From a virus, in the IMG/VR virus record IMGVR_UViG_3300021401_000004, positions 1 to 64,000 of that record: a stretch of DNA of 64,000 nucleotides, one strand, 5' to 3'. The notes under the pieces were generated by a model. That model was given only the letters and a program-made list of their open reading frames with translations, was not told where the DNA came from and did not search any database. Numbering within the stretch: position 1 is the stretch's first letter; each line of letters starts with the position of its first letter. Made by a program: the position numbers and the translations under genes. Shown here one piece after another: positions 30,551-35,317 of the stretch.

Positions 30551-31056
30551 AGATCACGATTTGTGATCTCAAGTTCATTTTCCGTATAAAACAAAGGAGG
30601 CGCACAATGACAACCTTTAAATAGGAGGTCAAAATGCGTACAGAAGAACAGAAGTTCGCGACCAAGCTCCGTAAGGCGGGGGAGCGGGCAAAACATCGCG
30701 AGAGAGTTTTCAAGAAACATCCGCCATCGGTTCGCTATGCGAAGTCGAAGTTCAAAAAAGGAACTAAGCGTCCTCGCAAGAATCGGAAGCCCGTAACTGT
30801 AAAGTTGGGCGTGCAATAAGAACGCAGTCCTCAAGCCTACTAACAGTGCTGAAATCGAGGTCTATTAAGTCGGGCGGTAGGGCAACTTATCGCCCGCAAA
30901 TTTTGAGTCGAAGGCCGGATTGCCCGAGACTCCCCAATTACGTGAGGGATTCACCTGGAGTTCTCTGACTCCAAGCCCGCAAGCCTATCGGATTATAGGT
31001 TGCCCGCGAGCGTAGTAGAGCAGCTTCGGCTGAACTTGACCTAAACAGGTGAAACT

Positions 31057-33686
31057 ATGGGCTATAGCCCGAGTTCTAATAACCAGTCAAACCTGCCTCA
31101 GTCCACGGTTCGGTACTACGACAAAAAGTTCCGTTAAATGGTTCTTGCGGAATAGGGTCGAAGCTCGTGTGCCAAGAAACAGGAGAACCTGAAGGCACAG
31201 ACGCCGTTCGTCGCGTGTTCCGAACGTTTGGACCTCCCGATGAAATCTGGTAACCAGTACAACTTGTATCAAACAGGTACCCTCATCGCGTAAGCGATGT
31301 TGAATAACGTGGCTATATCGGGGGATAACTCATTGAGTCAATCCCGAGGGAAGTCTAAGTGACCCCGTAGAGACTACACGCCGCGCCCCGGAAACGGGTG
31401 ATGATATAGTCCGCACTTACGGGCGACCGTAAGAGGTTGGCAGTTATACTTGCCCGCCGCAACAAAATGGATGTATGTTCCCCTCGCGGCCAACACCAGT
31501 CAGACGACTGAAGGAACTGTTGGCGCGGGCGTGAGCGTATCTGTACTGAATACCTCGGCGACAATCGGTGAGTTGATTTGCGGCTCACCATAAACTTGAC
31601 TATATCGGTGGACATCTGCTATAATGGCAGACAATACCGAGCCAAGACTAACCGTTTTACAAGCCTATTAAATAATCCAAAAGGATGGCTAGAATGTCAG
31701 ACAAATCAAAATATTCGTACCTCGCTGGAATTATTGATGGCGAGGGCTGTTTTTGCATCGGAGCTGGACGACGCCAGAAGTGGGGCGTCATCAACTACAA
31801 TCCGCAGATATTGGTTGGCAATACGGACCATAGATTGACTGCGTGGCTGAAGGAAAACTTCGGGGGCGTAACTTTTACGCAACGCCCGAATAACCCGAGA
31901 TGCAAAATTCCGTCTATTTGGCGGTTGTCGAAAAAGAAGGACATGGAACTTCTTATTTTGGCAATCATGCCTTATCTGATAATCAAAAAAGAGCGTGCAA
32001 TTGTCTTCCTAGAATTTCTACGGCTTCCGCCGACAATGAATCCCGAACGTCGGGAAGAGTTGTGGAAACAGTTGTCGATCTTGAATAAACGGGGAGTAGA
32101 CGTAGAGACTAATACGTCAAGCAGTTCGGAAAACGAACTGAAGATAGAGTCCGAACTTACTGGTGACAGTAAGAGTGGCCCTGTGGTGACACAGGAGACG
32201 GCGACGCCCGTAATGACTGCCTAAAAACAGCATTCCCAAAACACAGTTGACGCTGATTACGCTAACTTCTCCAGCCTCAGTCTGGCGACCGCAATCGACA
32301 ACACTGTCGAAAACGTCGCCCGAGAGATGGCCTACCGTCTCGGCGAGTCCCTGTCCGCTTTGGTTCGTGCAACTGCGGACGGCGCGAACTCCGTGGATTC
32401 TTCGGTCCTGACCAAACTGGCCGCGACCTCGACCACGAGCTTCACGACTCTCTCCTTGACCTACATCCGAAACGCCGTGCAGTCACTTGCTGGGCGTTCG
32501 GTTCGCCCGTTTGACGAAGCTTCCAAAAACTTTGCTGGTGTGATCCATTAGGTTGCGGGCAACCGCATAAGGGTGGATATAAAATTCTCTCTGATTGACT
32601 CGAACGCTGAGATGCCAACGAGGGGCAAGTCAATATAGTTCCATAATGGAAACATATTGACAGCCTGAACGACTAAGCGAGAGAACGTTCATGTCGCATG
32701 AACGATGCAATAGTCTGAACAGTACGGAAAATGAACGTACTGAAGTAAGCAGAAATGACTTGCTCGGGCAAATCGCCCGTAACAACTTGCCTTTTGCACT
32801 CGGCGATGTTTTGGCGGACAACTCGAACGATTCGCCAATCGATATCCTGAAGCGTACTCCGCAGGGTTACAGCCGCCTGGATGAAATCATCTCGACGGAC
32901 TTGACCGAAGTCATTGAAATCCCGACTTCCGGCGTAAGCTTCTTCCAGTCAAACTTGGTGACCACCAGCCCGAACTACAATCCGGGAACTGGCGCGGTTA
33001 CGGGCTTGACTGCTCTGCGTACGTATATCTTCGGGCGCGATGGCATTTTCTCCATCAACCTCGGAGCGCAGGGTGACACCGGATACGGTGACGGTGAGTG
33101 GCGGAATATCCGTTTTTCATAATGTTTAGCGGATACAAAATTTCTTCTAATTGACTCGAACCCTGGAATGGCAACGAGGCGCAAGTCCAGAAAACGGACA
33201 GCGTGAGAGACTAAACGAAGAAACGCCTTCGGGCGATGCAATAGTCCGGTCTTCACAGAACAACAAATGTGAAGAGGCAAGCAGAAATGACTTGCCCGTC
33301 GAAAGACGTAACACAGACGTGCAACATCGTGCAAAACGCCGAGCCTTCGGTTGCGGACCCCAGCGGTCTAATTCCGGGGTGGACCAGCTATCGTGTTCAC
33401 TTCACGACCAGCTTGGGTCCGGATACTACAATCCGTATGTCATGGTAAAGTCCTAATGCGGATTCAAAACTCAATCTTATTGACTTGAAACCTGAAATGG
33501 CAACAAGGCGGAACCCTTCGGGGACCGTGAGAGACTAAGCGATTGAGCGCCTTCGGGCGATGCGATAGTCCGAACATACGGAAAACGAACCGTATGAGGT
33601 TGGCAGAAATGACCAATCTCAACAGCTTGTAAGTTGTTGATAACAAGGCGATTAGGGAAATTGACGCGGCCAGCGCAATCAGCTAA
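31057..33686 (+). CDS. Major capsid protein (N4-gp56-like), join(31057-31134, 31183-31269, 31471-31573, 32250-32548, 32790-33113, 33320-33436, 33651-33686), 347 aa
   Basis: AGGTGA RBS. Exons total 1044 nt with no internal stop: YYDKKFR|ENLKAQTPF..GNQYNLY|MYVPLAANTSQTTEG..IGE(Y)|ADYANFSS..GVIH|PFALGD..WRNIR|CNIV..DPSGLIPGWTSY..TTIR|IREIDAASAIS. Follows portal and scaffold. Confidence 0.88.
31135..31182 (+). other. 48-nt core-less group-I-like mini-intron (I1)
   Basis: Follows U and ends in G; GCGGAA pairs with exon UUCCGU (U.G at the junction); GGUUCUU pairs with 3' exon GAGAACC; holds two in-frame stops. Confidence 0.7.
31270..31470 (+). mobile_element. Group I intron I2 (~201 nt)
   Basis: P7 GACUA 31372 / UAGUC 31407; AAUCCCGAGGGAAG; P9.0 CA:UG before the terminal G. 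The 5' boundary is less certain (4-bp P1). Confidence 0.85.
31574..32249 (+). mobile_element. Group I intron I3 (676 nt) carrying a LAGLIDADG ORF
   Basis: P1 GGUGAGU:GCUCACC; P3 CUUGAC:GUCAAG; GACUA 32107 / GAGUC 32147; terminal G. Confidence 0.92.
31685..32224 (+). CDS. Intron-encoded single-motif LAGLIDADG homing endonuclease
   Basis: YLAGIIDGEG; FGG; PYLIIKK. Confidence 0.92.
   Translation: MARMSDKSKYSYLAGIIDGEGCFCIGAGRRQKWGVINYNPQILVGNTDHRLTAWLKENFGGVTFTQRPNNPRCKIPSIWRLSKKKDMELLILAIMPYLIIKKERAIVFLEFLRLPPTMNPERREELWKQLSILNKRGVDVETNTSSSSENELKIESELTGDSKSGPVVTQETATPVMTA
32549..32789 (+). mobile_element. Group I intron I4 (241 nt)
   Basis: P1 AUCCAU:GUGGAU; P10 AAGG:CCUU; GACUA 32671 / UAGUC 32711; splicing restores IHP. 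Confidence 0.9.
33114..33319 (+). mobile_element. Group I intron I5 (206 nt)
   Basis: P1 UAUCCGU:GCGGAUA; GACUA 33209 / UAGUC 33242; P9.0 GUC:GAC. Confidence 0.9.
33437..33650 (+). mobile_element. Group I intron I6 (214 nt)
   Basis: P1 AAUCCGU:GCGGAUU; P10 UCCUAAU:AUUAGGG; GACUA 33533 / UAGUC 33566. Confidence 0.9.
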
Positions 33687-33694
33687 CAAGCTGC

Positions 33695-33723
33695 TTGACA
33701 AACCGCTTCGGTTTTGCTATACT
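33695..33723 (+). promoter_or_regulatory. sigma70-type promoter
   Basis: TTGACA-17-TATACT. Confidence 0.8.
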
Positions 33724-33811
33724 GATACTAGCTCCGTGAAATTCGGAGCGACAATTGGAAGGGTCGGGTGCCCAATCACTCGGCCCAACCAGTTCCCTAT
33801 TGGGAGGGAAT

Positions 33812-34525
33812 GTGGACAAAGGAAATATAGTAGGTCAGAGGTACGAGCGGCTCGAAGTCCTGATGCCCGCTTGGATAAACGAAAAACAAAATCAAGTTTG
33901 GTTGTGCGTCTGCGATTGCGGGCAAATTCGGTTTATCACCACTGCCGTTTGGAATGCCCAAAGTCGCAAAAGTTGCGGGTGTTTGCGTCGGGAAGTTTCT
34001 CGCGGGCAAACAACGGCCATGAATCTGGCACGGGCGGGCCAACCGCGATCCGCCAAAGGCAAGATAGCGTCTCAAGCAGCTTGCAAGAAAATGAACGCGG
34101 TGCGGCACTCTCACGCCCGCCACGTTCTGATTAAAGTAGACCCCGAGCGTTTGGTGGGCGAATGTGATGTCTGCGGGGCCGTTCCACTCAAGATAATGAA
34201 GCACCGCGTCGGCAATCAACGCGACCAATATCTATGTTGGGTGGGTTCTTTGCGGGTTCACAACGAATACGCGAATGCGAGAGTCCGTTATCCGAACCAC
34301 GCCTTGGAAATGTTTAACAAACAGGCCAACGCCTGCGCGGTTTGCGACGGGCAGATGATTAGGGGCGATGGTTTGGCAAATGACGGTATGGTTCTAGATC
34401 ACTGCCACACGACGGGCTATATACGCGGGTTTACGCATCAACGATGCAACAAAGGGCTTGCAATGTTTCTTGATCGTCCGGAAGTATTCCGCAAAGCCGC
34501 CGATTACTTGGAAAGAAATCGCTAG
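33812..34525 (+). CDS. Endonuclease VII-family (HNH-fold) homing endonuclease
   Basis: WLCVCDCG..SCGC N-terminus; CAVC..LDHCHTTGYIRGFTHQRCNKGL. Confidence 0.85.
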   Translation: MDKGNIVGQRYERLEVLMPAWINEKQNQVWLCVCDCGQIRFITTAVWNAQSRKSCGCLRREVSRGQTTAMNLARAGQPRSAKGKIASQAACKKMNAVRHSHARHVLIKVDPERLVGECDVCGAVPLKIMKHRVGNQRDQYLCWVGSLRVHNEYANARVRYPNHALEMFNKQANACAVCDGQMIRGDGLANDGMVLDHCHTTGYIRGFTHQRCNKGLAMFLDRPEVFRKAADYLERNR

Positions 34526-34999: not shown

Positions 35000-35317
35000 T
35001 GCTCAGTTGAAGTGCTGTTAAGACGTGCAAGACCGGGCTTCGAAGCCCGCAGGTCCACCAGATCGCCCGTTAAGTCGGTCGGAAAACTTGACTTCGGGTT
35101 TGGCTGCCAATATTTGCAAACTGGTAATGGGCGACGTGACGGGCCTGAAATGGATTCGATTGCGCGGACGAGATAGCATGGATGGGCACGGATGCTGTGG
35201 CCACGTTACGGACACAGAAACAACAACCGCTACGACTAAACCTCGGGCGTTTGCGGCAGCCGCTTAATAAACGGCCCGCACGGAGTCAGCCGGGAACTCT
35301 GGAAAATAATCCCGGCA
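35000..35317 (+). ncRNA. ssrA: Circularly permuted two-piece tmRNA (acceptor piece ~35000-35060, coding piece 35141-~35317)
   Basis: T-arm plus CAGGUCC-ACCA ending at 35060 precedes GGGCCUGAAAUGGAUUCGA at 35141; G3.U70 pair; tag ORF 35229-35267 ATTKPRAFAAAA followed by TAA TAA. Confidence 0.9.

What the first reader, a model, noticed from the sequence alone, without database searches (positions are those of the whole stretch)
31135..31182. 48-nt core-less mini-intron that would need a ribozyme core from elsewhere
The insert has two in-frame stops (TAA, TAG), so it must be removed to join YYDKKFR to ENLKAQ. It keeps a 6-bp P1 with the U.G pair at the junction, an adjacent 7-bp P10 to the 3' exon, and an A-rich end with terminal G, but has no room for P3-P8. 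Its 5' site UUCCGU closely resembles those of I5 and I6 (AUCCGU). Inference: a non-autonomous intron spliced by a neighbouring intron core in cis or trans. T4 gene 60-type bypassing is disfavoured because no matching CGU landing codon lies in the right frame. Joining the I1 5' site to the I2 3' site would skip exon 2 in frame, so alternative splicing is also possible.
Basis: partly seen in the sequence, partly recalled or inferred. Interest (0 to 1): 0.93.

Follow-up and report, generated by a model that had tools for sequence, protein, structure and literature searches.

The report
Core-less mini-intron in phage capsid gene
A 48-base, stop-containing insert in a soil phage's only capsid gene is a stripped-down group I intron that keeps its splice-site guide but has no catalytic part. 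Soil RNA data show it cleanly cut out, so it most likely borrows the ribozyme of a neighbouring intron.

Summary
Window 31135-31182 is a clean 48-nt insertion with in-frame TAA and TAG. It lies between codons 26 and 27 of the phage's single N4-gp56-type major capsid gene, which also holds five full group I introns.

The insert carries 14 contiguous guide pairs: a 7-bp P1 with U.G at the splice site, then a 7-bp P10. This occurs in 4 of 200,000 shuffles. The insert ends in G and has no P3-P9 core.

Relatives carry four versions at the same site (43, 46, 48 and 51 nt). Only the guide and the last G are conserved, and P10 shows one compensatory change. The tails look like remnants of the sibling full-length intron family.

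One metatranscriptome contig, 310 nt and identical to this phage, joins 31134 to 31183 exactly and also lacks intron 2. Another RNA library retains the 48 nt in an mRNA that has lost introns 2 and 3. That same contig has precisely lost a second, 43-nt mini-intron.

So excision happens at the RNA level and appears incomplete (contigs only). Gene-60-type bypassing is not supported. A helper ribozyme core from a sibling intron, in cis or trans, is inferred but not shown.

This scan has noted similar mini-introns in other phage capsid genes. I found no published natural case.

The parts
31057..31134 (+). Capsid exon 1 (codons 1-26). Its last 7 nt (31128-31134) form the 5' strand of P1, and U31134 is the 5' splice-site nucleotide.
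   Evidence: tblastn against the Tunturi_3 major head protein; RNA joint 31134|31183.
31135..31182 (+). 48-nt core-less mini-intron I1, with in-frame TAA at 31135 and TAG at 31153.
   Evidence: Clean insertion relative to uninterrupted homologues; no Rfam core; skipped exactly in RNA contig X7 record 14.
31140..31146 (+). Guide segment that forms P10 with the first 7 nt of exon 2.
   Evidence: conserved with one compensatory change across variants.
31147..31153 (+). Guide segment that forms P1 with the end of exon 1. G31147 pairs with U31134 (U.G wobble).
   Evidence: hairpin in the centroid fold of all three variants folded; 100% of cells paired.
31154..31181 (+). Variable tail, a remnant resembling the P4-P5 5' region of the sibling full-length intron family. 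No structure is conserved among the variants.
   Evidence: Alignment with I4/I5/I6 and the L024/L058 introns; folds differ between variants.
31182..31182 (+). Terminal G (omega-G position) at the 3' splice site.
   Evidence: G in all four variants; joint ends TA..AG.
31183..31269 (+). Capsid exon 2 (87 nt). Its first 7 nt form the 3' strand of P10.
31270..31470 (+). Intron 2, a complete 201-nt group I intron 87 nt downstream. It is the nearest candidate helper core.
   Evidence: Rfam RF00028, 51.4 bits; RNA joints 31269|31471 in X7 and X8.
31574..32249 (+). Intron 3, a group I intron with a LAGLIDADG ORF at 31685-32224.
   Evidence: RNA joint in X4, X7 and X8; Pfam PF00961.
32549..32789 (+). 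Intron 4, of the sibling family I4/I5/I6. It is absent from relative L082.
   Evidence: RNA joint in X4.
33114..33319 (+). Intron 5. Its 5' exon ends AUCCGU and its guide contains GCGGAU, so its P1 is nearly identical to that of I1. Candidate helper core.
   Evidence: RNA joint in X4 and X7.
33437..33650 (+). Intron 6. Its boundaries are inferred from the protein alignment and guide pairing. Its P1 is nearly identical to that of I1. Candidate helper core.
   Evidence: No RNA joint was seen for this phage type.

Best explanation
I1 (31135-31182) is a non-autonomous group I intron. It is an internally deleted descendant of the full-length intron family that also populates this capsid gene. It has kept only what defines the splice sites: a guide that pairs with the end of exon 1 (P1, with U.G at the cleavage site), an adjacent guide segment that pairs with the start of exon 2 (P10), and a terminal G. 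It is excised from the pre-mRNA by the two group I transesterifications. The G-binding site and the rest of the active site are supplied by the folded core of another group I intron. That core could come from the same transcript (intron 2 lies 87 nt downstream; introns 5 and 6 have an almost identical P1) or from excised intron RNA acting in trans. Excision is slower or less complete than for the full introns. Shown here: the insertion, the guide pairings and their conservation, homology of the tail to sibling introns, precise RNA-level excision, and retention in part of the mRNA. Inferred: group I chemistry and the identity and location of the helper core.
For: (1) RNA library X7, contig record 14 (310 nt, 0 mismatches to the window, including 100 nt of the variable 5' leader), joins 31134|31183 and 31269|31471. 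No DNA contig in X1 shows these joints. (2) Every fetched relative with at least 81% identity to that leader+exon 1 stretch carries the mini-intron. Insert-less alleles reach only 76-85% identity and align with exon 1 alone, so they cannot be the source of that contig. (3) Relative L082/L097 has a second mini-intron of 43 nt (L097:1991-2033) with an 8-bp P1 carrying U.G, a 6-bp P10 and a terminal G. The L082-type RNA contig in X8 reads straight across it. That contig matches all L082-specific differences. (4) There are 14 contiguous guide pairs, found in 4 of 200,000 shuffles. (5) Four variants at the same site (48, 51, 46 and 43 nt) conserve the guide and the final G, while the tails diverge in sequence and length. 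In the named structure 94% of cells pair, against 32-56% when the partners are slid. One compensatory change is present: exon +7 C to U together with guide G to A. (6) The U.G wobble at the splice site is kept in all variants, although A-U would pair better. (7) The tails align with the P4-P5 5' region of I4/I5/I6 and of the HNH-encoding intron that sits 12 nt upstream in relatives L024/L058. (8) All four lineages have a full group I intron 15-87 nt downstream. (9) This is the only capsid gene in a genome that CheckV rates complete. (10) Engineered group I cores can excise an internal segment defined by P1, P10 and a terminal G in trans, and a guide can be supplied separately from the core (PMC4094466, PMC2532722, PMC2709566).
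Against: No helper has been identified. The tails show no complementarity to downstream introns beyond shuffled controls. In X8 the 48 nt are retained in an mRNA that has already lost introns 2 and 3, and X4 also has a contig retaining them. A purely cis mechanism through intron 2 would therefore leave dead-end molecules. The RNA evidence comes from Logan contigs at low depth (3.7), not raw reads, so ratios are unknown. One exact excision of I1 itself was seen, in one library. From general knowledge, docking of a P1 helix that is not tethered to the core is weak in vitro.
Confidence: 0.6

Rival explanations
1. I1 is an autonomous minimal ribozyme. Like the 56-81-nt 'degenerate' group I introns reported from fungal SSU rDNA, it would splice itself using only P1, P10 and a rudimentary G-binding helix, perhaps stabilised by pairing with the 3' exon.
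For: Harris and Rogers report 63-75-nt introns with P1, P7 and P10, and in vitro splicing of one of them (PMC3160393). In variants A, B and D a short stretch of the tail can also pair with the first 3-6 nt of exon 2 (and reading).
Against: The tails of the four variants share no structure and little sequence, and range from 25 to 32 nt. No conserved P7-like helix is present. A single-nucleotide variant (L114) breaks the tail-to-exon pairing of variant B. I1 is retained in mRNA from which the full introns are already gone, which fits a dependent element better than a self-sufficient one.
Confidence: 0.08
2. A protein machinery removes I1. The P1/P10 guide merely brings the two exon ends together on one helix, and a host or phage endoribonuclease and RNA ligase then cut and rejoin them.
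For: The guide aligns both splice sites side by side regardless of who performs the catalysis. Bacterial RNA ligases of the RtcB type are widespread (control genomes).
Against: The phage has no RtcB homologue. The conserved U.G wobble and terminal G are group I-specific signals with no known role in protein-mediated splicing. The element descends from group I introns and always sits beside them. No such bacterial mRNA splicing system is known to me.
Confidence: 0.07
3. Ribosomes handle the retained insert. The productive route to capsid protein would be translational bypassing of the 48 nt (T4 gene 60-like), or landing at the in-frame CGA at 31159, with RNA excision a minor side reaction.
For: In this variant a stop codon directly follows the last sense codon, which lies in a hairpin stem. 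The gap is about 50 nt. AGGAG lies at 31181-31185. The insert is retained in fully processed mRNA in X8. In variant C, UUG precedes a stop and UUG also ends the insert.
Against: No matched take-off and landing codons restore the conserved junction in variants A, B or D. Variant B has no stop until its penultimate (16th of 17) in-frame codon, and variants C and D have their stops one codon later. RNA with the segment precisely removed exists. Conservation falls on a guide complementary to both exons, with a compensatory change, which bypassing does not require.
Confidence: 0.07
4. There is no RNA processing of I1. The X7 junction would come from an undetected insert-less DNA allele or a reverse-transcription skip across the P1/P10 helix, and the insert is a recent disabling or tolerated lesion.
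For: The evidence is one contig at depth 3.7 in one library. RNA libraries can contain DNA. Insert-less alleles with the same 32-nt junction exist in distant relatives.
Against: Those alleles are only 76-82% identical to the contig. The contig is 100% identical to this phage over the variable leader, whereas the nearest relatives (94% identity) all carry the insert. There is no microhomology at the joint ('both' = 0). A second mini-intron is excised in another library. The insert has persisted through four diverged lineages with its guide intact. It interrupts the only capsid gene.
Confidence: 0.05

Closest known systems
Self-splicing group I introns of phages (Rfam RF00028; T4 td/nrdB/sunY, Twort orf142 with three introns)
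   Same: The exon ends in U paired to G of an internal guide (P1). An adjacent P10 pairs with the 3' exon, and the intron ends in G. It has an early in-frame stop and sits in an essential phage structural gene. Its sequence is homologous to sibling full-length introns of the same gene.
   Different: It has no P3-P9 core, no G-binding site and no J8/7, in only 43-51 nt. It therefore cannot be the catalyst of its own removal in the way these introns are.
Small 'degenerate' group I introns of fungal nuclear SSU rDNA (56-81 nt; Phialophora, Arthonia, Porpidia; PMC3160393)
   Same: They are tiny inserts with P1 and P10 but without most of the core, and they are absent from the mature RNA.
   Different: The fungal ones keep a putative P7 and are reported to self-splice in vitro. 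They lie in rRNA genes of eukaryotes and form one monophyletic group. The phage ones are shorter, have no conserved helix beyond the guide, interrupt an mRNA, and always lie next to full-length introns of the family they derive from.
Engineered trans-acting group I ribozymes: 'spliceozyme' (PMC4094466), trans-excision-splicing (PMC2532722), Azoarcus core with an exogenous guide (PMC2709566)
   Same: A separate group I core removes an internal segment bounded by a P1 site and a terminal G and joins the flanks. The guide and the core can reside on different molecules.
   Different: These are laboratory constructs in which the guide is normally part of the ribozyme. Here the guide sits on the segment to be removed, and the system is natural.
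T4 gene 60 translational bypassing
   Same: A stop-containing gap of about 50 nt in an essential phage gene, with a hairpin that includes the last decoded codon.
   Different: In gene 60 the gap stays in the mRNA and matched GGA codons flank it. Here the gap is removed from RNA, the codons do not match, and relatives vary in length and stop position.
Euglena plastid group III introns and other degenerate group II introns thought to need trans-acting help (from general knowledge, not checked here)
   Same: These are drastically shortened derivatives of a self-splicing intron class that keep splice-site elements and are presumed to rely on factors supplied in trans.
   Different: They belong to a different ribozyme class with different chemistry (branch-point lariat), occur in organelles, and have a helper that is likewise unidentified.

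Membership tests
Group I intron (RF00028) | P1 helix between the 5' exon end and an internal guide, with U.G at the cleavage site | tested here: met
   31128-31134 pairs with 31147-31153, and U31134 pairs with G31147. All four variants keep it.
Group I intron (RF00028) | P10 between the guide and the 3' exon, and a terminal G | tested here: met
   31140-31146 pairs with 31183-31189, and G31182 is terminal. P10 is 4-8 bp in the variants, with one compensatory change.
Group I intron (RF00028) | Conserved catalytic core (P3-P9, with the G-binding site in P7, J8/7 and J4/5) | tested here: not met
   There is no Rfam match on the insert even at E up to 1, while intron 2 scores 51 bits. Only 28 nt lie between the guide and the last G.
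Group I intron (RF00028) | Precise excision from RNA with exon ligation | tested here: met
   X7 contig joins 31134|31183 with 0 mismatches. The sibling 43-nt mini-intron is excised in X8. The evidence is from contigs only.
Group I intron (RF00028) | Guanosine-initiated transesterification (5' G added to the excised intron); self-splicing in vitro | not testable with these tools
   This needs in vitro transcripts or small-RNA reads of the excised 48-mer.
Gene 60-type translational bypass | Matched take-off and landing codons flanking the gap | tested here: not met
   CGU precedes the gap and CAG ends it. The only in-frame match is a near-cognate CGA at 31159, which would add 7 residues. Variants B and D have no match either.
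Gene 60-type translational bypass | Stop codon immediately after the take-off codon, conserved | tested here: not met
   This holds only in variant A. Variants C and D have the stop one codon later, and variant B has it only at its penultimate (16th of 17) in-frame codon.
Gene 60-type translational bypass | Gap retained in the translated mRNA | tested here: inconclusive
   It is retained in the X8 and X4 contigs and removed in X7.
Fungal small degenerate group I introns (PMC3160393) | P1, P10 and a putative P7 within 56-81 nt; common descent with the Phialophora/Arthonia group | tested here: not met
   No helix is conserved among the four tails. The sequences derive from phage introns I4-I6/L024, not from fungal IC1 introns.

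The most novel reading that the evidence does not exclude
A natural division of labour among group I introns. Mini-introns of 43-51 nt carry only the address (P1/P10 guide and terminal G), and one or more full-length sibling introns act as shared catalysts, in cis or as free RNA in trans. This would be a natural counterpart of the engineered 'spliceozyme' and a group I parallel to the proposed path from group II introns to the spliceosome. Because removal lags behind that of the full introns, it could also gate capsid synthesis on the build-up of intron RNA during infection.
Probability: 0.5. Interest if true: 0.9.

Novelty: new variant of a known kind. Interest (0 to 1): 0.85.

Why it matters
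Group I introns are the textbook self-splicing RNAs: each intron is its own enzyme. Here an essential phage gene depends on removing an intron that cannot be its own enzyme. Environmental RNA shows that it is removed, and comparative data show selection on the guide alone. If a sibling core does the work, this is the first natural trans- or shared-core group I splicing of a core-less intron. It would also be an evolutionary intermediate of the kind long postulated, for group II introns, on the way to spliceosome-like systems. The question is directly testable with short transcripts. There is a practical consequence too: such inserts break gene calls in phage genomes. No capsid ORF is predicted in this phage, and similar inserts may be mistaken for pseudogenes or bypass sites.

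Tried and rejected
(1) Mobile mini-element: the genome has no second copy of the 48 nt; the best other matches are 11 nt.

(2) Tethering of the tail to a downstream intron: the best duplexes are no better than those of shuffled tails in any of the four lineages.

(3) Conserved tail structure: the folds differ between variants, and overall folding energies are not unusual (z from -1.0 to +0.5).

(4) Phage-encoded RtcB ligase: none found.

(5) A full-length intron at exactly this site: a scan for any interruption directly after the Arg-26 codon in IMG/VR found only mini versions. An earlier, looser pattern returned only chance hits and was wasted. Full-length HNH introns exist 12 nt upstream in relatives.

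(6) Insert-less DNA as the source of the spliced contig: rejected on identity.

(7) Independent confirmation from protein databases: two predicted proteins (P0002, P0003) read straight through the exon 1-exon 2 junction with 100% identity to the joined peptide. Whether they are transcripts or insert-less alleles therefore stays open.

(8) Exon-2 skipping: no such joint was seen. With contigs only, this says little.

(9) Literature: six full-text searches found no natural core-less group I intron in a phage or bacterium.
Full report
**What is there**

The window is the first 64 kb of a 92,960-bp IMG/VR phage record that CheckV rates complete. Its only major capsid gene starts at ATG 31057 and is split seven ways. 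The closest annotated relative is the major head protein of Tunturiibacter phage Tunturi_3, and JGI names relatives 'N4-gp56 family major capsid protein'.

Aligning the uninterrupted Tunturi_3 protein to the window gives this map:
- Exons: 31057-31134, 31183-31269, 31471-31573, 32250-32548, 32790-33113, 33320-33436 and 33651-33686.
- Intron 2: 201 nt, Rfam group I at 51 bits.
- Intron 3: 676 nt, with a LAGLIDADG ORF.
- Introns 4, 5 and 6: 241, 206 and 214 nt, 72% mean column identity in their three-way alignment, with covarying P3.

The flagged segment 31135-31182 is the first interruption. It begins with TAA, has TAG six codons later, and separates ...KKFR from ENLKAQ.... These two peptides are contiguous in every uninterrupted homologue.

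Yes. The guide at 31140-31153 is complementary, with two wobbles, to the joined exon ends. It forms seven pairs with exon 1, ending in U31134.G31147, and seven adjacent pairs with exon 2. The insert ends in G. Fourteen contiguous pairs of this kind arise in 4 of 200,000 shuffles of the insert, and never together with a final G.

The identical 48 nt occur in a relative that differs by about 5% elsewhere (L082, which is identical to L097 over the capsid gene). They also occur in RNA-library contigs and in a DNA contig that spans the region. A collapsed assembly is therefore excluded. The insert occurs once in the genome.

**Comparative evidence**

Pattern scans of IMG/VR and JGI metagenomes found four versions of the insert at exactly this site:
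- A: 48 nt (this phage, L082, L097).
- B: 51 nt (L085/L116, with a one-base variant in L114).
- C: 46 nt (L084/L086/L118).
- D: 43 nt (L241).

All follow an exon ending UUCCGU, contain GCGGAA as the P1 guide, have 4-8 P10 pairs immediately 5' of it, and end in G. Everything else differs.

In D the exon-2 codon CTG has become TTG, and the guide base opposite it has changed from G to A. This is a compensatory change. For the P1/P10 structure I named, 94% of cells pair, against 32-56% when the partners are slid. With five sequences the shuffle statistics are weak.

Lengths of 43, 46, 48 and 51 nt are not all multiples of three. A stop directly after the last sense codon exists only in A.

The tails align with the P4-P5 5' region of introns 4-6. 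They align even better with the HNH-encoding intron that sits 12 nt upstream in relatives L024/L046/L058/L063. The mini-introns therefore look like internally deleted descendants of that family, retargeted to a nearby site. Introns 5 and 6 have almost the same P1 (AUCCGU/GCGGAU).

**RNA evidence**

I laid three soil metatranscriptomes and the probable source metagenome on 30600-33800. All data are Logan contigs, so they show which forms exist but not their amounts.

- **X7.** A 310-nt contig with no mismatch covers 30957-31134, jumps to 31183-31269, and jumps again to 31471-31515. Both the 48 nt and intron 2 are gone, at exactly the predicted junctions and without microhomology. Other X7 contigs, also identical to this phage, show the intron 3 and intron 5 joints. 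The DNA run shows none of these joints.
- **Could an insert-less allele be the source?** No sequence other than the window's own among about 240 fetched loci is 100% identical to the leader+exon 1 part of that contig. The closest relatives (94%, 93%, 86% and 81%) all carry the mini-intron. The insert-less alleles that share the 32-nt junction are only 76-82% identical to the contig. The contig is therefore best read as spliced RNA of this phage.
- **X8.** A 1,537-nt contig matches L082 at every L082-specific difference checked: the 5' leader differences shown, 17 in exon 4 and 10 in exon 5. L082 DNA has I1, intron 2 and intron 3. The RNA contig has lost introns 2 and 3 but keeps the 48 nt.
- **A second mini-intron.** L082/L097 carry a 43-nt mini-intron (L097:1991-2033) with an 8-bp P1 including U.G, a 6-bp P10 and a terminal G. 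It lies 27 nt upstream of a full intron. The same X8 contig reads straight across it: its loose end after window position 33109 is the exon sequence joined over the 43 nt (table 7).
- **X4.** One contig retains the 48 nt and another retains intron 2. These are precursor RNA or DNA carry-over.

Taken together, core-less mini-introns of this phage group are precisely excised from RNA. This was seen for two different mini-introns in two libraries. Excision of the 48-nt one appears incomplete (contigs only) and is not required before intron 2 leaves.

**How it most likely works**

The conserved parts are exactly the substrate elements of a group I reaction: a P1 helix with the U.G wobble, P10, and a terminal G. 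None of the catalytic elements is present.

The simplest mechanism is that a folded core of a sibling intron docks the I1 P1 helix and performs guanosine attack at 31134/31135. It then binds G31182 in its G site while P10 holds exon 2, and ligates the exons.

From established biochemistry, P1 recognition by group I cores is largely by shape and 2'-OH contacts rather than sequence. Engineered cores do excise internal segments in trans, and they accept a guide supplied on another molecule (PMC4094466, PMC2532722, PMC2709566).

Candidates for the helper:
- Intron 2, 87 nt downstream. In variant C the next intron is only 15 nt away, so the micro-exon is entirely occupied by P10 of the mini-intron and P1 of the next intron.
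- Introns 5 and 6, whose P1 is almost identical to that of I1.
- Any excised intron RNA in the infected cell.

I could not discriminate between these. The tails show no complementarity to downstream introns beyond chance. The X8 molecule that lacks intron 2 but keeps I1 shows that the cis route through intron 2 cannot be the only one, unless such molecules are dead ends.

I put the helper-core model at 0.6. Of that, RNA-level excision itself is about 0.9.

**Rivals**

- **Autonomous minimal ribozyme.** The fungal rDNA mini-introns (PMC3160393) are the closest published natural objects. This reading is unlikely here because nothing beyond the guide is conserved.
- **Protein-mediated cutting and ligation.** It cannot be excluded, but it would not explain the group I-specific U.G and terminal G. 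The phage has no RtcB.
- **Gene 60-type bypassing.** It fails across the variants and is made unnecessary by the spliced RNA. It could still contribute on retained mRNA.
- **Artefact, or a DNA allele as the source of the X7 junction.** Argued against above.

**Novelty**

In seven full-text searches I found no description of a natural core-less group I intron in a phage or bacterium, or of natural shared-core group I splicing. The fungal 'degenerate' introns are the nearest precedent and differ in the respects listed under Closest known systems.

This scan has itself noted similar mini-introns in other phage capsid genes, including a 51-nt one that is probably my variant B and the 43-/48-nt pair of the L082-type phage. 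What this report adds:
- direct RNA-level excision for this phage;
- the four-variant comparison with a compensatory change;
- co-existing retained and excised forms;
- descent of the mini-introns from the sibling intron family.

I class it as a new variant of a known kind (group I introns). The helper mechanism would be categorically new if demonstrated.

**Limits**

- The RNA evidence is contig-level and of low depth.
- Read laying could be called only once.
- The host is unknown. The nearest isolate infects an acidobacterium.

Noticed in passing
L097:1991-2033 (same as L082, minus strand): A second core-less mini-intron of 43 nt in the capsid gene of the 5%-diverged relative. It has an 8-bp P1 with U.G, a 6-bp P10 and a terminal G, and lies 27 nt upstream of a full intron. 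It is absent from this window (exon 6 is uninterrupted there). It is precisely excised in the X8 RNA contig.
   Followed up: yes
window 35000-35267: Circularly permuted (two-piece) tmRNA gene in the phage, just downstream of the capsid locus. Rfam RF04321 scores 65.8 bits against a gathering score of 47.
   Followed up: partly
L084:4726-4800 (also L086, L118): In variant C the mini-intron (46 nt) is followed by a 15-nt micro-exon and then a group I intron of about 1 kb. The micro-exon's first 4 nt pair with the mini-intron guide (P10), and its last 6 nt form P1 of the next intron.
   Followed up: partly
L024:2386-3000, and L046, L047, L058, L063: Relatives without the mini-intron carry a full-length group I intron, which I read as HNH-encoding by eye (not confirmed by Pfam), 12 nt upstream of the I1 site (between codons 22 and 23). 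Its 5' region is the closest match to the mini-intron tails. The mini-intron might disrupt that endonuclease's target and so protect against invasion. This was not tested.
   Followed up: partly
window 32549-32789 compared with L082: Intron 4 is precisely absent from relative L082, and intron 5 is absent too, while L082 has other introns near codons 300-317. Intron content differs between phages that are about 95% identical, which points to active gain and loss.
   Followed up: partly
window 33755-34525: A free-standing ORF just after the capsid stop codon matches Pfam Endonuclease_7 (PF02945, E 9.5e-13). It is probably a homing-type nuclease associated with the intron-rich locus.
   Followed up: partly
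P0002, P0003 (database proteins): Two predicted proteins on short contigs (1,349 and 1,504 nt) read through exons 1-5 without any intron and are 100% identical to the joined exon 1-exon 2 peptide. P0003 then runs into intron-like sequence after codon ~315. They are either transcripts of a mini-intron-bearing relative or an insert-less allele. The contigs could not be fetched.
   Followed up: partly
window 30820-31056: The 237-nt capsid leader is much more variable between relatives than the exons: about 6% differences plus two deletions in L082. This is what made the RNA contigs assignable to a phage type.
   Followed up: no
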